Shown here: positions 1 to 7,110 of the stretch, one piece after another
Layout: each line of letters begins with the position of its first letter
How positions within the stretch are numbered: the stretch's first letter is position 1
IMG/VR virus record: IMGVR_UViG_3300002523_000001
DNA: 7,110 bases
Reading direction: 5' to 3' (one strand)
DNA from: a virus
Translations under genes and position numbers: made by a program
The notes under the pieces: generated by a model
Told to the model about the DNA's origin: nothing
Database searches by the model: none
The model's input: only the letters and a program-made list of their open reading frames with translations

Positions 1-101
1 CGCCACCCTCCTAGCGCTGGTGGTGCTGGGAAGCGAGCAGCAGCCCGCACAAGCGGCAGAAATCGGCGTCGAGGCCGACTCGGTGTACATTATGCGAAAT
101 C
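1..101. repeat. Terminal direct repeat, copy 1 (identical to 7010-7110)
   Basis: A base-by-base reading shows that cgccaccctcctagcgctgg...gtgtacattatgcgaaatc is identical at both ends. The repeat is bounded by the window edges, so its true extent is unknown. Confidence 0.97.
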
Positions 102-220
102 GCGGGGGCCTCGGTAAAGCACTGCGCTACCTCGGCCGAATCCTGCGGGACTGGTTCGGCTTCGCCCTAGGACGCGCCCGCAAGCCAGAAGGAAGCATCG
201 AGGCCTTCACATGGATTTGA
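2..220 (+). CDS. 3' part of the same repressor ORF. The track's ORF 20-220 is its tail, and 2-101 duplicates 7011-7110.
   Basis: It is in frame with 6753-7110 across the 7009-bp circle and ends at TGA 218-220. The tail reads ...SVYIMRNRGGLGKALRYLGRILRDWFGFALGRARKPEGSIEAFTWI. Third codon positions are GC-rich. Confidence 0.65.
   Translation, partial: ATLLALVVLGSEQQPAQAAEIGVEADSVYIMRNRGGLGKALRYLGRILRDWFGFALGRARKPEGSIEAFTWI
73..100. other. dif-like XerC/XerD recombination site, a putative attP. A second copy at 7082-7109 lies inside the terminal repeat.
   Basis: The site reads ggccgactcgg-TGTACA-TTATGCGAAAT. The right arm plus central region resembles the bacterial dif layout (GGTGCGCATAA-TGTATA-TTATGTTAAAT in E. 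coli). From memory, it also resembles the TATACATTATGCGAA attP core of Xanthomonas Cf/Lf/XacF1-type inoviruses. The left arm is degenerate, which is usual for phage attP sites. No integrase gene is present. Confidence 0.55.
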
Positions 221-534
221 CCGACTACAACAACAGGACGCCGTGCTGGCCAATGGGCCAGCCATGCCCGAACAAGTGCGCTGCGCAAGTGCACGACTTG
301 ATAACGCGGAACCATGTGCACTTGCACGGCCCGTGGGCCGGCTGGCGACTCGCCGGCCGCGACCTGGTCAGCCCAGACGGCATCAGATTCAGCCCCGAGC
401 GACTCCGAGGGCTGGCATGGCGGCAAGAAGCAGAAACCCGCTTGGCCCACATCCGGGCCAAGCACCAGCAGCAAGAACCGCTGGTGACCGTGATCCGCGT
501 CCGCCAGAACGAAATCGGACCCCTCGCCAGCTAA
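211..534 (+). CDS. Hypothetical phage protein, 107 aa. From memory it may belong to the DUF3653-type family seen in Xanthomonadaceae-type inoviruses and prophages.
   Basis: ATG 211 overlaps the repressor stop by 10 nt. A GAGG lies 8 nt upstream. GC3 is high throughout. The motif GPWAGWRLAGRDLVSPDGIRFSPERLRGLAWRQ looks like a conserved small phage protein family, but I cannot confirm this without an HMM search. Confidence 0.6.
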   Translation: MDLTDYNNRTPCWPMGQPCPNKCAAQVHDLITRNHVHLHGPWAGWRLAGRDLVSPDGIRFSPERLRGLAWRQEAETRLAHIRAKHQQQEPLVTVIRVRQNEIGPLAS

Positions 535-769: not shown

Positions 770-1159
770 ATGGACCGAGAGCGACCGCCCTACCTGGGCG
801 ACCTACCGCGCGACCGACGCGGCAACTGGCCGATGTACCTGCTGGCCGTCAGCCTACTGGCCGCACTGATCGGCGCTTGGAAGGTCTACACGGGCACCGT
901 GGTGGCATGGCATGAGCGCTTCCAGGCTCCGAAGCCCACCGCCACAGCGCCAGCACCGCCAAGCCCCGCCGAGCTAGAACGACGCCGCGCAGCACGGCAA
1001 GAGGCGCTTGTCGCAGAGGCCGCGCGCCAGATCATGCAGCAGGCCGAGAAACAGGACCGGTCAGGCTGGAAATGCATCGACGGCACGCCGTTCCGGCCTG
1101 TTCCAGGTGGCGGCTGGGAGAACGTGCCAGGCGAGAGATGCGCTACGTCGAGGCAATAG
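770..1159 (+). CDS. Hypothetical membrane-anchored protein, 129 aa. ATG 833 is an alternative start.
   Basis: AAGGGGGA lies 5 nt upstream of ATG 770. GC3 is roughly three quarters by eye. The protein has an N-terminal TM helix (WPMYLLAVSLLAALIGAWKVY), a Pro/Ala-rich linker, a charged helix and a C-terminal WKCIDG...GERC pair of cysteines. I recognise no family. Confidence 0.55.
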   Translation: MDRERPPYLGDLPRDRRGNWPMYLLAVSLLAALIGAWKVYTGTVVAWHERFQAPKPTATAPAPPSPAELERRRAARQEALVAEAARQIMQQAEKQDRSGWKCIDGTPFRPVPGGGWENVPGERCATSRQ

Positions 1160-1778
1160 CAGACAACAAGATGAGATGAGCAACGTAATACCCGAGGAAA
1201 ACCCATCGAACGCGCGGCAAGCGCACATCCAGACGCCCCAGCACCCACAGCACCGGCACCGATAACAACGCCCAGCCGTTGCCGTTGTAGAAGCACAGAG
1301 CGCCGTATGCAGCACCCAGTGCTACGGCAGCGACGACATGACCCGTCCACGTCCTGGCACCGAACCACAGACGCGCACCGAGCATCAGCGCCGGGCCGGT
1401 CCACTGATAATCAACAAACAAGCCGAGGACCGCCCACGCGACGAGCGCAGCCCATGCGCTCCGCGCAGTGCAAACGTACAGCCCAAGCGCAAGCGAGAAC
1501 AACACGTTCACCGGCAGCCAGTAACCGAACGCCAGCGCGTGGAACGGCTGAACGATCGCCCCAGCCAACAGCAAGCGGCGAATCGCCCGGCCAGCAGTCC
1601 CAGAGCGCGTATCCACCGCGGCGTTGTAGGCCAGCACAACGGCAAACACCGGGAACGCGACGCGCCCCACTTCCGATAGCCACTGTAGCGAACCAGCGAA
1701 CATGACCTTGTTCACGTGGTCGCCGGTCATCAAAACCAGCGCCAACCATTTCAACAGTTCACGGCCGCCAGACGTCAT
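1143..1778 (-). CDS. TraX-family integral membrane protein (F-pilin N-acetylase family), 211 aa
   Basis: The protein is polytopic and hydrophobic. Its N-terminal block ELLKWLALVLMTGDHVNKVMF....GRVAFPVFAVVLAYN closely parallels my recollection of F-plasmid TraX (..IIKTVALVLMVLDHINRIL....GRGAFPLFALVWGLN). The C-terminal YYVAHLILL parallels FYACHLAVL. Its ATG (1778-1776) overlaps the zot stop (1777-1775) as ATGA. Confidence 0.75.
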   Translation of the reverse strand: MTSGGRELLKWLALVLMTGDHVNKVMFAGSLQWLSEVGRVAFPVFAVVLAYNAAVDTRSGTAGRAIRRLLLAGAIVQPFHALAFGYWLPVNVLFSLALGLYVCTARSAWAALVAWAVLGLFVDYQWTGPALMLGARLWFGARTWTGHVVAAVALGAAYGALCFYNGNGWALLSVPVLWVLGRLDVRLPRVRWVFLGYYVAHLILLSAIAST

Positions 1779-2902
1779 TGCACCAGCCCCGCACCATCAA
1801 TAATGACTCCCGCCCCGCTCGTAGACGCTGCCACGGCCTGCGGCACCTGGCCAACCTGATGCACCTGATCGCGCTGACGCTCACGGTACGGGTTATAAGG
1901 CGCACCATGACGCGCCACCGTGCGGCACTCGGCCTGACTCAATTCATAGCGCGTGCCCTGCTCCGTCAAACATGTGCAAGACGGTTCCCTCTTCTGCCCG
2001 TTGGCATCTTCGCCGGAAAGCGAAGACATGCAATACAACTGAGGATCGGCAGTGATGCGCCGCTCATCGAAAACCGGAGCCGTCCACGGCATAGTGGCAA
2101 ACCGCGGCAAATGCGCAGTCGCATAATCCGAGAGACTGGCCCACGCCCCGCGCCCGCCGCCGCCCTGCCCCACAGAAACGGCAGCATGCGGCGGCGCGGC
2201 TGACGCCGCGCTCGCCGCCTCCTCCGAAACACTGCTAGACACAGCATCCGGACGCAAGAAGCTAAACGCAATCCACCCAGATACCACGGCTCCGACAATC
2301 ACCGCAGGAATTGCCAACACCTTGAGCGGAATACGCGGCCTGATCGTATGAACCTCTGCGGACTTGTAAGAGCCAAACACATGCGAAGGCAACAGCCGCG
2401 TGGTCCGCTGAGCCAACTCACGCTTCGCGGTGGACTTGATATCTTCGTTCAACTCGCCCCACGTGAACACGTCAACCATGTGCGTTCCGAACCGGCGCAC
2501 AACGTGATGATGCGTTCCGATCAGACCCCGCACAAACGGATAAAGCTGATTCGGCTGCTGAGTAGTCCACACAAAATCCAGACCGCGGTGCCGATGTTCT
2601 GCGAGATCGAGAACATGCTTAGGCGTAGCTTGCCGTGTCGCATCGTGAAGATGACCAAACCATTTCCAGGCCTCATCGACAAAGACGAGCGAACCGTCAG
2701 GGACAATGTACTGTCCTGTGTGAGGATCACGGCGGTTCCAATCCCGCGCATCGTCCAACGGCGTAGCCAAACCCGGCTGCAAACCATCAATGCCAACCGC
2801 AAAAATCGGGCGCTCGGCTTTCTTCGCTTCTTCAATGAGACGCTCAACCATGAGCGCCGTCTTACCATTGCCGGGCTGACCGGTAAAAAGTTCGATAGGC
2901 AC
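1775..2902 (-). CDS. zot: Zot / pI-family phage assembly ATPase, 375 aa from GTG 2902. The longest ORF starts at ATG 2947.
   Basis: Walker A is GQPGNGKT and Walker B is SLVFVDEAW. The Zot signature LAEHRHRGLDFVWTTQ is present. A single TM helix (VLAIPAVIVGAVVSGWIAFSFL) is followed by a periplasmic Cys-containing C-domain. The GTG start gives MPIELFTGQPGNGKT, which aligns with the Ff pI N-terminus pattern MAVYFVTGKLGSGKT. It sits 1 nt after the pVI-like stop, with GGGGG upstream. Confidence 0.9.
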   Translation of the reverse strand: MPIELFTGQPGNGKTALMVERLIEEAKKAERPIFAVGIDGLQPGLATPLDDARDWNRRDPHTGQYIVPDGSLVFVDEAWKWFGHLHDATRQATPKHVLDLAEHRHRGLDFVWTTQQPNQLYPFVRGLIGTHHHVVRRFGTHMVDVFTWGELNEDIKSTAKRELAQRTTRLLPSHVFGSYKSAEVHTIRPRIPLKVLAIPAVIVGAVVSGWIAFSFLRPDAVSSSVSEEAASAASAAPPHAAVSVGQGGGGRGAWASLSDYATAHLPRFATMPWTAPVFDERRITADPQLYCMSSLSGEDANGQKREPSCTCLTEQGTRYELSQAECRTVARHGAPYNPYRERQRDQVHQVGQVPQAVAASTSGAGVIIDGAGLVQ

Positions 2903-2903
2903 T

Positions 2904-3236
2904 TCAAGCCCCCGTTGCCGCCTTGCGGAAGAACACCCGGCCAGCATTCATTGCGTGCCTGGCCGCCACCGCGGAAATGATCATAGTCAACGCCTTGTCG
3001 AAATTGAGGAGGCCCATCCATTGCAGCGCCACGACAGCATAATCTCCACCGCCCATGCCAGAGGTTGCGAGGCTTTCGAGATGATCGATGAACGGCTCCA
3101 CGCCGAACTTGTAGCTCGCCAACGAAACGCCGAACCAGCCAAGAATAGCCGTGAGCATCTGCCCGATGCGATTCTTAAACAGCCACAGGACGGCAGACGT
3201 AATGCCAGAAATGATCCAACCGAGAATTGCAGGCAT
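2904..3236 (-). CDS. pVI-like minor coat / membrane protein, 110 aa (DUF2523-like position and topology)
   Basis: It lies between the pIII-like gene and zot, as gVI does in Ff. It has two or three hydrophobic helices (ILGWIISGITSAVLWLF, LTAILGWFGVSLA, LTMIISAVAA). Its ATG overlaps the pIII-like stop as TAATG, and a GGGGGGA Shine-Dalgarno is present. Confidence 0.75.
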   Translation of the reverse strand: MPAILGWIISGITSAVLWLFKNRIGQMLTAILGWFGVSLASYKFGVEPFIDHLESLATSGMGGGDYAVVALQWMGLLNFDKALTMIISAVAARHAMNAGRVFFRKAATGA

Positions 3237-4558
3237 TACGCAATCCCCCCGCTAACGATTCGCAAACTCACCAGTCCAGCCAGAATCAACACGAGAGAAC
3301 CCGCCAGACTCACCCACTGGCACAACGGCGCAAGATCGAAATTAACCACCACGCCGTTCGGCAACGTCACACTCGGCGGCGTCGGACACGTCCGCGAGTA
3401 GCCGTAACCGCTCGAATCAGGCTCGGGAATGTCAAATTCATCATCGCCGGGGCCGGCATCGGTCAGCGTATCGCCACCAACAACATTCGAATCGTGCGTG
3501 CCTGGACCACCAAGGAACTCGATCAGGTCCGAATTGTCACCGCCGCCGCCACCGCTACCACCACCGGCTGCGATCTTTTCCAGCGCGCACGCTGCCTTCC
3601 ACTGCTGCACCAGCATCGAATACTCCAGCGCATCGCATTTTTCACCGACACAAACCGGCGGAGACCCGCACGTGCCGCCGCTAATGCTGCGATTCTTGCG
3701 AGTGTTGCAATCAATGCGCCATTGAATGCGCGCTTGGCCGCACAAGATCGGGCTGCCGCTGCACTGGGGAGGCGTGCTGCAATCATCGCCGCCAGAGAAA
3801 AACTCTTCATCGGCGTCATCTTCGTTGCCATCCCCGTCATCGTCCCGCTTACACGTACCGTCCGGACCCCGCACCTGGCCAGCAGGGCACTCGTTATCAA
3901 CACAGCTTCCGTCCGGACCGCGCACCTGACCAGCCGGGCATTCGTTCTCGCGCTTGCGACACGTGCCATCCGGACCAAGAACTTTACCCGCAGGGCACGG
4001 CTCCGGAGCACATTGACCGAGACTGTTGACAATCTGACCAGCAGGGCATTCCGGCTCGTTGGGTTCACAAACGTTCAATAAAGCATTCCACGTTCTGCCG
4101 GATGCAACACATCCGTCCGGATCAAGCCCCTCACACGGCAAAGAATTAGCAAACGTAGCGGTACTAGTACCGTCACCGTTCCTGTAAAAATGAACCACAC
4201 AGCCAGCATTGCAAGAATACGAACCCGACAGCGGATAAAACTCCGTCACAAAATCGGGGCGCTTGTCACAAGTCTTGTCGCGGTCGAAGCCAAACAAACC
4301 GAACAAATAGCAGGGGCCAGACTCTGTTACACACCGCTGGCCACGATACGCTTGTGGAACAGAGCCCTCCAGAACACAACGAGAAAATGGCAACTCAGGA
4401 CGATTAATCGCGCGAGTAGCAGCCATGCACTCGAGGTATGCCTCGCCCTGATCACGAGCATATGCCTTTTCAGCGCCGAAAAATGCCAGCGCGATCAAAA
4501 CGAACGCGCACGCAACAAGACGCGAAATCGCACTAGCGAACATGCGCGAGAAACTCAT
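3236..4558 (-). CDS. pIII-like adsorption / minor coat protein, 440 aa from ATG 4558. The track starts it 1 codon earlier, at GTG 4561.
   Basis: A signal peptide (MSFSRMFASAISRLVACAFVLIALAFFGAEKAYA) leads into a cysteine-rich N-terminal region. Four CPAG(Q/K)-x4-7-C repeats follow, three of them containing GPDG. Next come an acidic stretch (KRDDDGDGNEDDADEE) and a Gly-rich linker (AAGGGSGGGGGD). A C-terminal membrane anchor (WVSLAGSLVLILAGLVSL) completes the protein. It is the largest gene between the major coat gene and the gVI-like gene, which is the Ff gIII position. Confidence 0.8.
   Translation of the reverse strand: MSFSRMFASAISRLVACAFVLIALAFFGAEKAYARDQGEAYLECMAATRAINRPELPFSRCVLEGSVPQAYRGQRCVTESGPCYLFGLFGFDRDKTCDKRPDFVTEFYPLSGSYSCNAGCVVHFYRNGDGTSTATFANSLPCEGLDPDGCVASGRTWNALLNVCEPNEPECPAGQIVNSLGQCAPEPCPAGKVLGPDGTCRKRENECPAGQVRGPDGSCVDNECPAGQVRGPDGTCKRDDDGDGNEDDADEEFFSGGDDCSTPPQCSGSPILCGQARIQWRIDCNTRKNRSISGGTCGSPPVCVGEKCDALEYSMLVQQWKAACALEKIAAGGGSGGGGGDNSDLIEFLGGPGTHDSNVVGGDTLTDAGPGDDEFDIPEPDSSGYGYSRTCPTPPSVTLPNGVVVNFDLAPLCQWVSLAGSLVLILAGLVSLRIVSGGIA
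3851..4054 (-). repeat. In-frame tandem coding repeats inside the pIII-like gene. The two best copies have a 51-nt (17-aa) period.
   Basis: The protein units are ECPAGQIVNSLGQC, PCPAGKVLGPDGTC, ECPAGQVRGPDGSCVDN and ECPAGQVRGPDGTCKRD. DNA units 3851-3895 and 3902-3946 align with differences concentrated at synonymous positions (CGG/CGC, GGC/GGT, CCT/CCG, GAG/GAA). Confidence 0.85.
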
Positions 4559-4623
4559 CACTCACCATCGAAGAGGATGTACAGAGCCACAAGCCACGCA
4601 ACAAGCCAAATCCAACCTTCCAT
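4558..4623 (-). CDS. Candidate 21-aa hydrophobic micro-protein (MEGWIWLVAWLVALYILFDGE), possibly a pVII/pIX-like small coat or assembly protein
   Basis: I translated this by hand; it falls below the track's length cutoff. It runs from ATG 4623 to TGA 4560-4558, which shares its A with the pIII-like ATG (TGATG). GGGGA lies about 8 nt upstream. It forms a single TM-length hydrophobic helix, as the Ff pVII/pIX proteins (32-33 aa) do. Confidence 0.4.
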   Translation of the reverse strand: MEGWIWLVAWLVALYILFDGE

Positions 4624-4680: not shown

Positions 4681-4899
4681 TTACATCGCGCGACGCACCC
4701 ACTTATAGACCTTGATGCCCACCAGCACCAGGAGCACCGCAGAACCAATCGCCGCAATCGGAGCCGCAGCACCCTCGATGGCGCTAACGACACCGGACAC
4801 ATCGACACCACCACCGCTGGCGAACGCGGCCGGAGCGACCAGAACCAGCGACGCGGCCGGAACGATGGCGTGCAGCTTGCTCTTGAACTTGCTCAGCAT
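4681..4899 (-). CDS. pVIII-like major coat protein precursor, 72 aa
   Basis: The signal peptide is MLSKFKSKLHAIVPAASLVLVAPAAFA, with an A-x-A cleavage motif. The mature peptide is about 45 aa, with an acidic N-terminus (SGGGVDVSGVVSAIEG), a hydrophobic core and a basic C-terminus (KVYKWVRRAM). A strong AGGAG Shine-Dalgarno lies 9 nt upstream, and the terminator follows immediately downstream. Confidence 0.92.
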   Translation of the reverse strand: MLSKFKSKLHAIVPAASLVLVAPAAFASGGGVDVSGVVSAIEGAAAPIAAIGSAVLLVLVGIKVYKWVRRAM

Positions 4900-4911: not shown

Positions 4912-5115
4912 TCACGATTGATCAACGAACTTGCGAATCCGGCGAAAAACCCACGCGCTGCCCCAGAGCAACGCGCACGCAAGGCCGATAGCCTGCGCTT
5001 CCTCGATGCTCAGCGCCGGAAGACTGGACATCTGAGGAACCCAAACCTCATGCGCGCACGTGCCCGTCGAAGCGTCGAAATCACGATCCAGACAACCGCG
5101 GACCACGTACGCCAT
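4912..5115 (-). CDS. Small membrane protein, a candidate minor coat protein in the gVII/gIX position. It is 67 aa from ATG 5115; the track starts it at GTG 5124.
   Basis: It lies between the ssDNA-binding and major coat genes. The sequence is MAYVVRGCLDRDFDASTGTCAHEVWVPQ...AIGLACALLWGSAWVFRRIRKFVDQS, which is acidic and Cys-containing at the N-terminus, has one TM helix, and has a basic tail. AAGGGG lies 8 nt upstream of ATG 5115, whereas the GTG at 5124 has no usable spacing. Confidence 0.6.
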   Translation of the reverse strand: MAYVVRGCLDRDFDASTGTCAHEVWVPQMSSLPALSIEEAQAIGLACALLWGSAWVFRRIRKFVDQS

Positions 5116-5120
5116 CACAA

Positions 5121-5408
5121 TCACCCCTTCACCGCGCTAGCGGTAGTATTCGGAATCGGAATCAGGTGGATGCGGCGGCCGACCTTCAACGAGTCGAAAT
5201 CGCCGACCTCCAGAGAAGACACGTCCAGCAGGTACTTGCCCGGCGGATACGGCGGCTGATCATCGCCAAGATTGATAGTGAACGGCTTCGGGAAATCTTC
5301 GCCGGTTTCGATAGCCGCCCTCTGCTCCTTGAAAACAACCTGCGTACCGTCCTTGCGCTTGATGACGCGCGGCGTGACAGTGCCCGACTTGATGATGATG
5401 CAGTTCAT
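5121..5408 (-). CDS. gV-like single-stranded DNA-binding protein, 95 aa
   Basis: It lies immediately after Rep, and its ATG (5408-5406) overlaps the Rep stop (5407-5405) as ATGA. GGAG lies 8 nt upstream. The size and the beta-rich sequence ([47 protein letters not shown]...) are typical of inovirus G5P-type OB-fold proteins. The longer track ORF (to 5465) would overlap Rep by 60 nt and has no Shine-Dalgarno. Confidence 0.75.
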
Positions 5409-6244
5409 GCGATTCGCTCCAGTTTCCATGCAAACACCCGGCCCCGAACAAACGAAACCCGCCACGGCGAGGGCCAGAATTCGCCGGTGAGTTTGTCAAC
5501 GTAGCCGCCCAAAACCTTTCGAATATCGGCCAACGGGCCGAGTACTTCACGCGCTTCTTTCGGCGCTTTCCACCAGCGCAGTTCGCGCCTCGACTCTTCA
5601 TTGAGGCCGCCAACACCATGAGTGCGAAAGCCCTTCGGAAACGCCTCAGCCATCGCGCCGCAAAACTTCGACGCGTACTTCGCAAGATAGCCGACAGCGT
5701 TCCGGGCTTTCTCGATCTTGGTCATACCATGCGGCCACCAGCCACGCGCGTCAGGTTTACCCAGGTAGTACCCGCGCGGAATCCAGATCAAGAGGTGATA
5801 GTGGGGCCGCAATCGCTTGGTGAGTTCTCCGACCCAGAGATAACGCAAGCGCGAACGCCCGCGCCCCTTTCGTCGGTTAACGCGATCGAAATAGCCCCGG
5901 ATTCGTTTAACCAATTCGCTAACGTCACGAGGGCTTGCGTCACTTCCCTCTCGGTAGGTCGCGGTGAGCATGTACCACGCGCCACGGACCGAACCTTTCC
6001 GCGCTTCTTCGTCATGGAGCCTCGCTCCGGTGATGATGGATTTCCGAAGGCGCATCGCCCTGATGCGATGCCGGTCAAGTTCAACCGACACGCGGCAGAG
6101 GCGCGTGTCACTTGTTGAAGAAGGGACAAGCCCAAGGCTCGCTGCGCTCGCCTTCGGAAACTTCGCGGCGCAGAGAACCGGCGCGACCTCGGCAGTACGA
6201 AGCGCAGCAGCGGCCAGGAGCGCGTCACGATTGATGCAACTCAT
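5405..6244 (-). CDS. Rolling-circle replication initiator (HUH endonuclease, two-tyrosine phiX174 gpA-like type), 279 aa
   Basis: RCR motif 1 is WYMLTATY. Motif 2 (HUH) is RPHYHLLIW. Motif 3 is [10 protein letters not shown], compared with the phiX174 gpA active site YVAKYVNK. I chose the start at ATG 6244 because it overlaps the upstream stop as ATGA and has GAGGG 6 nt upstream. The track's 301-aa version starts at 6310, inside the zinc-ribbon gene. Confidence 0.88.
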
Positions 6245-6423
6245 GCGATGCCCTCTTCGCACCACAAGCAGCGGCCGTCCTCGCTCAGAACCTCGTGGCA
6301 GACCGGGCACTCGTCAAAGTCAGCCACCGGCTCGCCGTTGTACGGGTCCTCAACGCCGCACTCCGGGCACTCGTCAAGCTCGGGGTCAAGTTCGGCCCCG
6401 CAGTAGTCGCACTCAGGAATCAT
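6241..6423 (-). CDS. Small, highly acidic zinc-ribbon protein, 60 aa, with four CxxC motifs
   Basis: The sequence is [60 protein letters not shown]. It contains CxxC at four places (two predicted Zn knuckle pairs), about 19 Asp/Glu and only 1 Arg plus 1 His. Its ATG shares a base with the upstream stop (TGATG), and its stop overlaps the Rep ATG (ATGA). An AGAGGAAGG Shine-Dalgarno is present. The upstream part of the 166-aa track ORF is R/G/P/C-rich off-frame junk. Confidence 0.65.
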
Positions 6424-6617
6424 CAAACCTTCCTCTGCTCGCGATGTTGTGCAGCGCGCACCTCGCGCCTGGCGTTGCACACCAGCGCAGCGGCGCGATA
6501 GTCCGCGTCCAAGCGCTGGAAGCGGCGGAGACGGACGAAGCGGACGACCCCGGCAATACCGCCCACAACCAACGCAACAGCGATGATCAGCAGGACGACT
6601 GCAATAACGCTGCCCAT
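6423..6617 (-). CDS. Small membrane protein with a basic cytoplasmic tail, 64 aa. It is the first gene of the replication operon.
   Basis: The sequence is MGSVIAVVLLIIAVALVVGGIAGVV (TM helix) followed by RFVRLRRFQRLDADYRAAALVCNARREVRAAQHREQRKV. GC3 is about 70 percent by eye. It is translationally coupled to the zinc-ribbon ORF. A G-rich Shine-Dalgarno-like sequence lies upstream. Confidence 0.55.
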   Translation of the reverse strand: MGSVIAVVLLIIAVALVVGGIAGVVRFVRLRRFQRLDADYRAAALVCNARREVRAAQHREQRKV

Positions 6618-6753: not shown

Positions 6754-7110
6754 TGGAAATCGGAGAAATCATCGACCGCGCGAAAGCAGCCATCGGAGCC
6801 GAGAGCGACAGCGCGCTATCCCGCCACCTCGGACTCAGCCGAACCGCGGTAGGCAACTGGCGGTCAGGCGTCAGCCTGCCGGACCCGGTTTCCTGCGAGC
6901 GCTTGGCAGGACTGACCGGAATCCCGCTGGCACGGGTACTGGGAATCGTAGGAGAGGCCCGCGCTCACTCGCGCGAGGAAAAGGCCGTATGGCGCAAGCT
7001 GGCGGCCTCCGCCACCCTCCTAGCGCTGGTGGTGCTGGGAAGCGAGCAGCAGCCCGCACAAGCGGCAGAAATCGGCGTCGAGGCCGACTCGGTGTACATT
7101 ATGCGAAATC
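6753..7110 (+). CDS. CI-type helix-turn-helix phage repressor, 5' part. The ORF runs off the window end and continues at 102-220 after the overlap is collapsed, giving 158 aa in total.
   Basis: This ORF is not in the supplied track because it has no stop inside the window. My translation from ATG 6753 reads MEIGEIIDRAKAAIGAESDSALSRHLGLSRTAVGNWRSGVSLPDPVSCERLAGLTGIPLARVLGIVGEARAHSREEKAVWRKLAASATLLALVVLGSEQQPAQAAEIGVEADSVYIMRN... Position 6753 and position 20+7009 are in the same frame. The HTH pattern (LSRHLGLSRTAVGNWRSG..P......A..TG) is typical of phage CI-like repressors. An AAGGGG Shine-Dalgarno lies 7 nt upstream of the ATG. The gene is divergent from the replication operon, and operator-like repeats overlap its start. 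Confidence 0.7.
   Translation, partial: MEIGEIIDRAKAAIGAESDSALSRHLGLSRTAVGNWRSGVSLPDPVSCERLAGLTGIPLARVLGIVGEARAHSREEKAVWRKLAASATLLALVVLGSEQQPAQAAEIGVEADSVYIMRN
7010..7110. repeat. Terminal direct repeat, copy 2 (identical to 1-101)
   Basis: Same as copy 1. It implies a 7009-bp unit length. Confidence 0.97.

What the first reader, a model, noticed from the sequence alone, without database searches (positions are those of the whole stretch)
1143..1778. TraX-family (pilin N-acetylase family) membrane protein translationally coupled to zot, in the slot where inoviruses normally carry the gIV secretin
**What the sequence shows:**
- The last gene of the morphogenesis operon is a 211-aa polytopic membrane protein.
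- Its conserved blocks (LKWLALVLMTGDHVNK, GRVAFPVFAVVLAYN, YYVAHLILL) match my recollection of F-plasmid TraX.
- Its ATG overlaps the zot stop codon (ATGA), so it is co-translated with the assembly ATPase rather than being a loosely attached moron.

**Why it matters:**
- In F, TraX N-acetylates mature F-pilin. That substrate is a small, signal-peptide-processed, helical inner-membrane protein, which is also what the pVIII-like coat protein here is (mature N-terminus SGGGVDV...).
- One hypothesis is a phage-encoded coat-protein modification step, such as N-terminal acylation of the major coat protein.
- The alternative is modification of a host pilin receptor to give superinfection exclusion.
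- I am not aware of a characterised role for TraX-like enzymes in filamentous phage assembly.
Basis: partly seen in the sequence, partly recalled or inferred. Interest (0 to 1): 0.75.

Follow-up and report, generated by a model that had tools for sequence, protein, structure and literature searches.

The report
Phage acetylase paired with coat tag
A filamentous phage of Xanthomonas-type bacteria carries, fused onto the end of its assembly operon, a membrane enzyme of the family that acetylates the F-pilus subunit. The gene was already annotated in related phages, but here it turns out to travel together with a short Ser/Gly-Gly tag at the start of the phage's own coat protein, which points to that coat protein as its target.

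Summary
**Observation: confirmed.** Window 1143-1778 (- strand) encodes a 211-aa polytopic protein. It hits Pfam TraX at E=4e-37, and its ATG overlaps the zot stop codon (ATGA).

**Closest relatives.**
- It is nearer to IncP TrbP (201.5 bits; cutoff 206) than to F TraX (47.9 bits; cutoff 149).
- It keeps the ExxK-x10-H motif and the polar residues shared with F TraX.
- It folds confidently as about 9 TM helices (pLDDT 97).

**Not a new sighting.** The same gene follows zot in Xf109, Xf409, XaF13, Cf1c, XacF1 and SMA6, where it is annotated TrbP-like (PHROG 5529). It also occurs in 216 IMG/VR contigs. I found no functional study.

**New here.**
- 128 of 134 non-redundant zot/traX junctions are ATGA/GTGA, TGATG or TGAnATG.
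- All 77 readable window-type zot loci carry the gene.
- 84 of 85 unique coat proteins from TraX+ phages have a predicted mature N-terminus of [S/G/A/T]-G-[G/S/T/A].
- Homologous coats of TraX- relatives lack this tag, and many start with Gln. Leaderless-coat phages are all TraX-.
- F-pilin (AGSSG) fits the same pattern.

**Best reading (about 0.45).** The protein is a periplasm-facing acyltransferase that modifies the leader-peptidase-processed coat N-terminus. This is untested biochemically. Direct Edman sequencing of the Xf coat, if that is how it was done, would argue against it.

The parts
1143..1778 (-). TraX/TrbP-family gene. It encodes a 211-aa, roughly 9-TM predicted transmembrane acyltransferase.
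   Evidence: - Pfam TraX E=4e-37.
- NCBIfam TrbP 201.5 bits against a cutoff of 206.
- PHROG 5529 E=9e-61.
- AF2 model: pLDDT 97, pTM 0.91, 10 helical segments.
1716..1760 (-). Codons 7-21, carrying the TMH1 motif E7-x-x-K10-x10-H21 (with D20). This is the TraX version of the AT3/TmAT DxxRx10H acyl-CoA/catalytic motif.
   Evidence: - K10, D20 and H21 are invariant in 50 homologues.
- They are also conserved in IncP TrbP, F TraX and archaeal homologues.
- The motif, and the Arg-to-Lys replacement in TraX, are described in PMC12423673.
1775..1778 (-). ATGA overlap: the traX start codon overlaps the zot stop codon.
   Evidence: - Read directly from the sequence.
- The same junction class (-4, -1 or +1) occurs in 128 of 134 non-redundant zot/traX junctions.
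1775..2947 (-). zot / pI-like assembly ATPase, immediately upstream. The true start may be the GTG at 2902-2900.
   Evidence: - Pfam Zot E=4e-16.
- PHROG 197 E=9e-88.
- 64-67% identical to the Zot of Xf109, SMA6 and XaF13.
4681..4899 (-). Major coat protein precursor (72 aa) and proposed substrate.
- Signal peptide: residues 1-27 (nt 4819-4899).
- Mature protein: 45 aa, starting SGGGVDV.
   Evidence: - Phage_Coat_B E=1e-16.
- The mature part aligns end to end with the Xf coat protein 2IFO at E=5e-17.
4807..4818 (-). Codons 28-31, S-G-G-G. This is the N-terminal tag of the mature coat protein, and it co-varies with the presence of TraX.
   Evidence: - 84 of 85 unique TraX+ coats start [SGAT]-G-[GSTA].
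- Only 2 of 14 TraX- coats do, and one of those two comes from a truncated prophage.
- 77 of 77 window-type zot loci are TraX+ with xGG coats.

Best explanation
The gene encodes an active member of the TraX/TrbP family of polytopic inner-membrane acyltransferases. It is a fixed, translationally coupled last gene of the morphogenesis operon in one large lineage of Xanthomonadales inoviruses.

**Proposed mechanism**
1. The enzyme binds acetyl- (or another acyl-) CoA from the cytoplasm through the E7xxK10 / R64xxR67R68 / R189 face.
2. It passes the acyl group to a periplasm-facing site formed by D20, H21, R39, N91, D123, Y124, N165, Y198 and H201.
3. It transfers the group to the alpha-amino group of the major coat protein. 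This happens just after leader peptidase has exposed the coat's [S/G/A/T]-G-[G/S/T/A] N-terminus, while the protein waits in the inner membrane for Zot-driven assembly.

This would give a blocked, uncharged N-terminus on every virion subunit, as TraX does for F-pilin.

**What is shown:** family membership, conserved residues, fold and topology, conserved coupling, and the co-variation with the coat tag.

**What is inferred:** the acyl donor, the coat protein as acceptor, and the consequence for the virion.
For: **1. Family**
- Pfam TraX E=4e-37.
- TrbP 201.5 bits.

**2. Catalytic-type residues**
- K10, D20, H21, R39, R68, N91, Y198 and H201 are conserved from F TraX through IncP TrbP and archaeal homologues to all 64 phage and chromosomal copies.
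- ExxKx10H matches the AT3 DxxRx10H motif, with the Lys substitution reported for TraX.

**3. Fold**
- The 9-TM-type model is confident (pLDDT 97).
- With the N-terminus inside (R6, K10; four Arg in loop 181-192), the invariant polar residues split between a cytoplasmic and a periplasmic face. That is the pattern expected for acyl transfer across the membrane (my inference).

**4. Precedent**
- F TraX N-acetylates pilin after LepB cleavage (PMC7690428).
- The F propilin reads AMA|AGSSG and fits the same N-terminal pattern.

**5. Co-variation with the coat N-terminus**
- 84 of 85 unique TraX+ coats start [SGAT]G[GSTA], across five coat families.
- In three families that contain both states, the TraX- homologues lack the tag:
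  - SGGGGDFDG versus ADFDG, QSGDFDG or QGADFDG.
  - SG(G/S)xSPGAAIA versus SPGAAIA or TGAGSAIA.
  - SGGPAEAIT versus QAAGPGEAIT.
- Cf1c/L171 and L172 share a 69-79% identical backbone. They differ in TraX and in the tag.
- About half of the TraX- coats start with Gln, which can self-block as pyroglutamate.
- All leaderless 42-45-aa coats (phiLf-UK, Cf2 and SHP2 types) are TraX-.

**6. Retention**
- In a sample drawn by Zot rather than by TraX, 77 of 77 loci of the window's zot type carry the gene.
- The coupled junction is kept in 128 of 134 cases, down to about 45% amino-acid identity.
Against: - There is no biochemical evidence for any phage homologue.
- The nearest characterised relative by score is IncP TrbP. 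Its pilin is cyclised, it is not needed for transfer, and its function is unknown.
- The Xf coat protein is identical to that of a locus of this lineage (L261; 2IFO). As far as I remember it was sequenced by protein chemistry in 1978. If that was direct Edman degradation from Ser-1, a stoichiometric N-alpha block is contradicted. I could not obtain the paper.
- Cleavage sites are predicted by the AxA rule. Only the Xf type is anchored by experiment.
- The unique sequences are not phylogenetically independent. Only about three independent contrasts exist.
- Most TraX+ loci were fetched through TraX.
- A monophyletic chromosomal copy, with no phage genes around it, is conserved across Stenotrophomonas species. 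That hints at a target that need not be a coat protein of its own phage.
- Related phages without the gene make virions at high titre, so any role is not universally essential.
- Foldseek found no solved structure resembling the model.
Confidence: 0.45

Rival explanations
1. The enzyme modifies a host envelope protein rather than the coat. The target could be a pilus subunit or another leader-peptidase-processed periplasm-exposed protein. The result would be superinfection exclusion or another lysogenic-conversion phenotype. The coat tag would then be unrelated or only indirectly linked.
For: - A single clade of stand-alone chromosomal copies (bootstrap 95) sits in an ordinary syntenic chromosomal neighbourhood in more than 20 Stenotrophomonas species. 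All key residues are intact. This suggests a benefit to the host that does not depend on linked phage genes.
- IncP TrbP cannot act on a free pilin N-terminus in the mature cyclic pilin, and it alters a T4SS-dependent phenotype when expressed.
- The gene is absent from several related, fully viable phages.
Against: - It does not explain why the phage's own coat N-terminus changes with TraX presence in three coat families.
- It does not explain why all 77 window-type zot loci keep the gene coupled to zot.
- From established knowledge, type IV pilins, the usual receptors of these phages, have an N-methylated Phe N-terminus and so offer no free alpha-amine.
- Many Stenotrophomonas genomes carry inovirus prophages, so the chromosomal copy could act on phage coats in trans.
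Confidence: 0.2
2. The protein acylates a glycan or lipid (LPS O-antigen, osmoregulated periplasmic glucans, peptidoglycan or EPS). Most acyltransferase-3/TmAT enzymes do this, including the O-antigen acetylases of temperate phages. On this reading it is a serotype-converting moron.
For: - TraX belongs, as a borderline member, to the TmAT/Acyl_transf_3 clan, whose usual acceptors are carbohydrates.
- Phage-borne AT3 O-antigen acetylases are a known kind of lysogenic conversion (established knowledge).
- The gene sits at the operon end, where inoviruses often carry accessory genes.
Against: - The only characterised TraX-family enzyme acts on a protein N-terminus.
- No AT3, SGNH or other partner domain was detected.
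- There is no Pfam AT3 hit at E<=0.1.
- The coat-tag co-variation and the strict coupling are left unexplained.
Confidence: 0.12
3. The protein has a non-catalytic or regulatory role in the assembly machine. It would be a membrane partner of Zot/pI that stabilises or tempers the export complex and reduces envelope damage, by analogy with TrbP dampening T4SS-mediated killing.
For: - Translational coupling to zot is conserved.
- TrbP expression abolished T4SS lethality in a reconstituted RP4 system.
- These phages lack gIV, gVII and gIX homologues, so their assembly differs from that of Ff.
Against: - Residues that match an acyl-CoA-binding and catalytic motif are conserved all the way to F TraX and archaeal homologues. 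That argues for retained enzymology.
- The stand-alone chromosomal copies lack any Zot partner.
- Overlapping stop/start codons are the general style of this operon, not specific evidence of a complex.
Confidence: 0.1

Closest known systems
TrbP-like ORFs of Xanthomonas/Stenotrophomonas inoviruses: Xf109 ORF8, Xf409, XaF13 ORF8, Cf1c Cf1cp5, XacF1, phiSMA6 ORF192 (PHROG 5529 'transfer protein')
   Same: - Same family, size and position directly after zot.
- Same junction style and same genome architecture.
- 44-54% amino-acid identity.
- These are the same kind of gene.
   Different: - The window phage is a separate lineage, nearest to Pseudoxanthomonas prophages and metagenomic contigs.
- It has no megablast-level DNA similarity to any GenBank phage.
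- None of the known ORFs has a tested function.
IncP (RP4/R751-type) TrbP, the TraX-family gene of the trb mating-pair-formation operon
   Same: - Best-scoring curated subfamily: NF010454, 201.5 bits over the full length.
- 41-44% identity.
- In both cases the gene lies at the distal end of an operon that builds a helical filament of small membrane-derived subunits.
   Different: - The score falls just under the curated cutoff of 206.
- The context is a phage assembly operon, not a T4SS.
- The IncP pilin starts SEGTGG. From established knowledge it is cyclised, so it has no free N-terminus.
- TrbP is dispensable for transfer and has no known function.
F-plasmid TraX, the F-pilin N-acetylase
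   Same: - Same Pfam family.
- Shared residues: K10, D20, H21, R39, R68, N91, Y198, H201.
- The proposed substrate is of the same type: a small helical inner-membrane protein processed by leader peptidase, with a small-residue-Gly-small-residue N-terminus (AGSSG versus SGGGV).
   Different: - Only 36-37% identity, over the N-terminal half.
- It fails the F-type equivalog models: 47.9 bits against a cutoff of 149, and 44.8 against 419.
- No TraQ-like chaperone is evident.
- The host structure is a virion, not a pilus.
Acyltransferase-3 / TmAT superfamily enzymes (OafA/OafB, Oac of phage Sf6, OatA, HGSNAT)
   Same: - A TMH1 acidic-xx-basic-x10-His motif and a TMH3 RxxR-like motif (R64xxR67R68).
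- The same logic of moving an acyl group from cytoplasmic acyl-CoA to an acceptor outside the cytoplasm.
   Different: - About 9 TM helices rather than 10-11.
- No detectable sequence hit to AT3 and no Foldseek hit to solved TmAT structures.
- The literature calls TraX a borderline member.
- The acceptor is probably a protein, not a glycan.

Membership tests
TraX family (Pfam PF05857) | Full-length match to the family HMM above the gathering threshold | tested here: met
   128.6 bits against a cutoff of 25, E=4.2e-37; residues 6-207 match profile positions 2-215 of 217.
TraX family (Pfam PF05857) | Polytopic inner-membrane protein of about 9 TM helices with conserved TMH1 Lys and His | tested here: met
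   The AF2 model has pLDDT 97 and 10 helical segments, about 9 of them membrane-spanning. K10 and H21 are invariant and shared with F TraX. The 9-TM count and the Lys feature come from PMC12423673.
IncP-type TrbP subfamily (NCBIfam NF010454) | Score at or above the curated subfamily cutoff | tested here: not met
   201.5 bits against a cutoff of 206, a narrow miss, over residues 1-210.
IncP-type TrbP subfamily (NCBIfam NF010454) | Encoded within a trb/T4SS mating-pair-formation operon | tested here: not met
   Here the gene follows zot in an inovirus genome. In pTB30 it follows trbL-trbM-trbN.
F-type TraX pilin acetylase (TIGR02755 / NF010260 equivalogs) | Score at or above the equivalog cutoff | tested here: not met
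   47.9 bits against 149.35, and 44.8 against 419.
F-type TraX pilin acetylase (TIGR02755 / NF010260 equivalogs) | N-acetylation of the leader-peptidase-processed N-terminus of a filament subunit | not testable with these tools
   Only indirect support: TraX presence co-varies with an xGG coat N-terminus, and F propilin AMA|AGSSG fits that pattern.
Inovirus zot-linked TrbP-like genes (PHROG 5529) | Match to the PHROG profile | tested here: met
   E=9.3e-61; residues 1-210 match profile positions 1-209 of 213.
Inovirus zot-linked TrbP-like genes (PHROG 5529) | Position directly downstream of zot/pI on the same strand, with an overlapping or abutting stop/start | tested here: met
   The window has an ATGA overlap. 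128 of 134 non-redundant junctions are -4, -1 or +1. The GenBank phages show the same adjacency.
TmAT / Acyl_transf_3 clan (CL0316) | TMH1 DxxR(K)x10H and TMH3 RxxR motifs | tested here: met
   E7-L-L-K10-x10-H21 and R64-A-I-R67-R68 were read from the sequence. K10, H21 and R68 are invariant.
TmAT / Acyl_transf_3 clan (CL0316) | Structural similarity to solved TmAT folds (HGSNAT, GWT1 and others) | tested here: inconclusive
   Foldseek against the PDB gave no match with E<=0.001; the best was E=0.31 with TM about 0.12-0.2. A profile search of PDB sequences found nothing relevant. The literature calls TraX the most divergent, borderline member.

The most novel reading that the evidence does not exclude
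An inovirus lineage carries a matched enzyme/tag pair. One part is a TraX/TrbP-type transmembrane acyltransferase, translationally coupled to the assembly ATPase. The other is a short [S/G/A/T]-G-[G/S/T/A] tag at the processed N-terminus of the major coat protein. Every one of the several thousand subunits of the virion would then be N-acylated in the periplasmic leaflet before extrusion.

This would be the first enzymatic post-translational modification of a filamentous-phage major coat protein encoded by the phage itself. TraX- relatives may reach a similar end state with an N-terminal Gln (pyroglutamate). One copy of the enzyme appears to have been domesticated by Stenotrophomonas.
Probability: 0.4. 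Interest if true: 0.65.

Novelty: new member of a known kind. Interest (0 to 1): 0.5.

Why it matters
If the coat protein is the substrate, this would be a phage-encoded chemical modification of the whole virion surface of a filamentous phage. It would affect:
- surface charge,
- bundling and liquid-crystal behaviour in biofilms,
- protease and aminopeptidase resistance,
- antigenicity.

It would also give TrbP-type proteins of conjugative plasmids, which have had no function for 30 years, a tractable model substrate. On the practical side, it would offer a compact enzyme/tag pair for periplasmic N-terminal acylation, which could be useful for phage display.

The hosts are plant pathogens (Xanthomonas) and an opportunistic human pathogen (Stenotrophomonas), in which these phages alter virulence. 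If instead the target is a host structure, the gene is a conversion or exclusion factor that is very widespread in these bacteria.

Either way, a single mass measurement now tests the question.

Tried and rejected
- **Structure search:** Foldseek of the confident AF2 model against the PDB gave no significant match. A profile search of PDB sequences found only a chance hit at E=0.41. The TmAT relationship therefore rests on motifs and on the literature.
- **Whole-genome megablast against GenBank phages:** only a 47-nt hit, so there is no close sequenced relative there.
- **Literature:**
  - No paper tests a phage TrbP/TraX.
  - Two searches for the N-terminal state of the Xf/Xanthomonas coat protein found nothing useful, and one query was malformed.
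  - The original F traX papers are not held.
- **Terminator/promoter scan around the gene:** no more than chance.
- **GC profile:** only a mild rise, 0.64 against 0.55-0.60 in the structural genes. This is not evidence of recent acquisition.
- **Rejected, 'takes the place of the secretin' as a functional claim:** the protein has no resemblance to a secretin, and sister phages end the operon at zot.
- **Rejected, apparent TraX- exceptions with an SGG coat:**
  - L086 and L104 were artefacts of split Zot hits.
  - L224 is a truncated Zot within a tandem prophage array that also holds a TraX copy.
- **Rejected, hidden divergent TraX downstream of TraX- zot genes:** hmmsearch found none on the same strand.
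- **Sister-group relations of the phage clade to IncP TrbP:** unresolved (bootstrap 21), so no claim is made about the donor.
Full report
**1. What the window is**

Bases 1-100 repeat at 7011-7110, so the window is a circular genome of about 7,010 bp. It has the standard layout of an integrative inovirus.

On the - strand:
- rep (5405-6310 as listed; the ATG at 6244 is the more likely start)
- ssDNA-binding protein (5121-5465)
- a 70-aa membrane protein (4912-5124)
- major coat protein (4681-4899, Phage_Coat_B)
- a 441-aa pIII-like protein (3236-4561)
- DUF2523/pVI-like protein (2904-3236)
- Zot/pI (1775-2947)
- the gene in question (1143-1778)

On the + strand there is a repressor-like gene that runs across the window ends, and a DUF3653 protein (211-534). 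There is no secretin.

**2.

- Its ATG overlaps the zot TGA as ATGA.
- It matches Pfam TraX over its full length (E=4.2e-37) and PHROG 5529 'transfer protein' (E=9e-61).
- Among curated NCBI models it scores 201.5 bits on IncP TrbP (cutoff 206). It scores only 47.9 and 44.8 bits on the F-type TraX equivalogs (cutoffs 149 and 419).
- So it is a TraX-family protein of the TrbP type, not an orthologue of the F acetylase.
- Stop/start overlaps also join rep/ssb, ssb/p70 and pIII/pVI (read). The ATGA shows integration into the operon, not a special relationship with Zot.

**3. It is not a new sighting**

- tblastn finds the gene, 37-54% identical, in Xanthomonas phages XaF13, Xf109, Xf409, Cf1c, XacF1 and fSU1, and in Stenotrophomonas phage SMA6.
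- In the four records I opened (Xf109, SMA6, Cf1c, XaF13) it lies directly after zot. It is annotated 'conjugal transfer protein TrbP', 'trbP-related' or 'transfer protein'.
- IMG/VR holds 216 viral contigs with a relative. All 79 that I fetched have zot directly upstream.
- The species-representative genomes gave 64 loci, nearly all from Stenotrophomonas, Xanthomonas or Pseudoxanthomonas.
- The window's copy groups with Pseudoxanthomonas prophages.
- I found no paper that tests the function.
- For plasmid TrbP, a 2024 study states that virtually nothing is known. It reports that TrbP is not needed for RP4 transfer and that expressing it abolished T4SS-mediated killing.
- Most integrative inoviruses lack gIV. 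Sister phages (PSH1, SHP2, phiLf-UK, Cf2) simply end the operon at zot. The 'gIV slot' is therefore only a positional analogy with Ff.

**4. Is it likely to be an enzyme?**

- In an alignment of 50 homologues, 25 positions are invariant.
- Of these, K10, D20, H21, R39, R68, N91, Y198 and H201 are also conserved in IncP TrbP, F TraX and archaeal homologues.
- E7-x-x-K10-x10-H21 is the TraX form of the AT3 DxxRx10H motif. R64xxR67R68 resembles the TMH3 RxxR motif.
- A 2025 structural survey places TraX as a borderline, 9-TM member of the transmembrane acyltransferase (TmAT) superfamily. It notes the Arg-to-Lys replacement.
- The AF2 model is very confident (pLDDT 97, pTM 0.91) and consists of helices throughout.
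- With the N-terminus inside, the conserved basic residues fall on the cytoplasmic side. D20/H21, N91, D123/Y124 and N165 fall on the periplasmic side. This is my inference from the helix boundaries and the positive-inside rule.
- Foldseek found no similar solved structure, so the fold-level link to TmAT is not confirmed here.

**5. How tightly is it tied to assembly?**

- There are 134 non-redundant zot/traX junctions, spanning copies only about 45% identical in protein.
  - 92 overlap by 4 nt (ATGA 80, GTGA 12).
  - 24 read TGATG.
  - 12 have a single base between stop and start (TGAnATG; 11 of them TGAcATG).
- I drew 80 IMG/VR loci with the window's Zot, so the sample was not selected for TraX. 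All 77 with readable downstream sequence carry the gene.
- In other zot lineages the gene is present or absent.

**6. The main new result: co-variation with the coat protein**

For every zot gene in the fetched loci I located the leader-bearing coat gene upstream. I then took the last AxA site that leaves a mature protein of 38-56 aa.

- **TraX+ phages:** 85 unique mature coats in five sequence families. Of these, 84 start [S/G/A/T]-G-[G/S/T/A], for example SGGGG, AGGGG, SGSTS, SGGPA and GGGSG. The one exception is a spurious ORF.
- **TraX- phages:** 14 unique leader-bearing coats, of which 2 fit the pattern.
  - L224 is a truncated zot in a tandem array that also holds a TraX copy.
  - L010b starts TGAGS.

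Three coat families contain both states:

| Coat family | TraX+ N-terminus | TraX- N-terminus |
|---|---|---|
| Cf1c type | SGGGGDFDG | ADFDG, ADGADFDG, AGDFDG, QSGDFDG, QGADFDG |
| 'SPGAAIAGE' type | SG(G/S)xSPGAAIA | SPGAAIA, TGAGSAIA, QDGLGSAIA |
| 'AEAIT' type | SGGPAEAIT | QAAGPGEAIT |

- L172 (TraX-) and Cf1c/L171 (TraX+) share a 69-79% identical backbone. The similarity ends near the 3' end of zot.
- Phages with leaderless 42-45-aa coats (phiLf-UK, Cf2 and SHP2 types) are all TraX-.
- About half of the TraX- leader-bearing coats start with Gln. From general protein chemistry, Gln can cyclise to pyroglutamate, which is another way to reach a blocked, uncharged N-terminus.
- The verified F propilin reads ...QLAMA|AGSSGQDL and fits the same pattern. 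F TraX acetylates that N-terminus after LepB cleavage.
- The window's coat reads AFA|SGGGVDV. Its mature part aligns end to end with the Xf coat protein of PDB 2IFO, which anchors the cleavage site for that family.

**7. Caveats on this result**

- A Fisher test on unique sequences gives p of about 1e-12. The sequences are related, though, so the real evidence is about three independent contrasts plus the universal pattern.
- Cleavage sites outside the Xf type are predictions.
- Most TraX+ loci were fetched through TraX.
- Some TraX- prophages sit beside TraX+ prophages, where the enzyme could act in trans.
- The Xf coat protein was sequenced chemically in 1978 (my recollection; the paper is not held). 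If that was direct Edman from Ser-1, a complete N-alpha block cannot be right for Xf.

**8. A complication: a chromosomal copy**

- About half of the genome loci have the gene without zot.
- In Stenotrophomonas these copies lie in one syntenic chromosomal neighbourhood: an MgtA/MgtC-type transporter, a hydrolase and an AlkZ-like glycosylase, with no phage genes.
- They form one clade (bootstrap 95) that branches inside the diversity of the phage genes (bootstrap 90). They keep all key residues.
- This looks like a domesticated phage gene. It shows that the enzyme is useful without a linked coat gene, which gives some weight to a host target or to action in trans on resident phages.

**9. Verdict**

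- **Near certain:** the gene is a TraX/TrbP-family membrane protein, very probably an active acyltransferase. It is a stable, coupled part of the morphogenesis operon in this inovirus lineage.
- **Best-supported function (about 0.45):** acylation of the newly processed N-terminus of the major coat protein.
- **Rivals:** a host envelope protein target (0.2), a glycan or lipid target (0.12) and a non-catalytic role with Zot (0.1).
- **Novelty:** as a sequence feature it is a new member of a kind already annotated. The enzyme/tag co-variation appears to be new, and one mass measurement would test it.

Noticed in passing
L009, L012, L014, L020 and about 20 other genome loci (match at about 10001-10610); L151-L153 8001-8672: A stand-alone chromosomal TraX-family gene sits in one syntenic, phage-free neighbourhood across many Stenotrophomonas species. 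The copies form a single clade (bootstrap 95) nested within the inovirus genes (bootstrap 90), with all key residues intact. It looks like a domesticated inovirus gene.
   Followed up: partly
window 770-1159 (+): A 129-aa ORF converges on the traX gene and overlaps its 3' end by 17 nt. It has one TM segment, a Pro-rich stretch and a C-terminal domain, and no Pfam or PHROG family. tblastn finds homologues (34-62% identity) at the same place and orientation in SMA6 (unannotated there), L039, L005, L015, L017, L018, L027, L031 and L035.
   Followed up: partly
window 1-100 and 7011-7110: The first 100 bases are repeated at the end, so the window is a complete circular genome of about 7,010 bp with an assembly overlap.
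   Followed up: yes
window about 86-100 (+), inside the repressor-like gene that runs from about 6753 across the ends to 220: The sequence gTACATTATGCGAAat shares its core TACATTATGCGAA with the annotated attP of Xf109. This is a dif-like XerC/D attachment site, so the phage is probably integrative.
   Followed up: partly
window 211-534 (+): A DUF3653 protein (PHROG 25084, E=6e-31). It belongs to the family of PSB15, the packaging-signal-binding assembly checkpoint protein described for phiLf-UK in bioRxiv 10.1101/2024.03.19.585677. Its ATG overlaps the stop of the upstream repressor-like gene.
   Followed up: partly
window 6241-6423 (-) and 6423-6617 (-): Two small ORFs lie upstream of rep. 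One is a 60-aa protein with four CxxC-type pairs (MIPECDYCG...CPECG...CPVCH...CLWCE), a likely zinc ribbon. Its TGA overlaps a rep ATG at 6244 as ATGA. The other is a 64-aa single-TM protein.
   Followed up: no
TraX- loci such as L160, L161, L234, L237, L097, L101, L036 and L010 (directly downstream of zot): In many TraX- relatives the position after zot is taken by a small secreted protein of about 128-148 aa, with a signal peptide ending ...A(Q)QQ(I/V)H(S/K).... This is a different accessory gene occupying the same slot.
   Followed up: no
L016, L018, L019, L021, L112, L115, L116, L134, L145, L149, L150: Two or more inovirus prophages lie side by side, often one TraX+ and one TraX- or two TraX+ copies. 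These are tandem or convergent arrays, as expected for integration at dif. Some are interrupted by IS elements (L121).
   Followed up: partly
L023 (Nocardiopsis), L035 (Lactobacillus), L048 (Rickettsia endosymbiont MAG), L049 (Rhodopseudomonas): Loci typical of Stenotrophomonas or Xanthomonas appear in assemblies labelled as unrelated taxa. L035 and L049 are inovirus loci with zot directly before traX, on short contigs of 1.8 and 7.7 kb. L023 and L048 carry the stand-alone chromosomal copy, without zot, on contigs of 343 and 20 kb. All four are most likely contamination of those assemblies.
   Followed up: no
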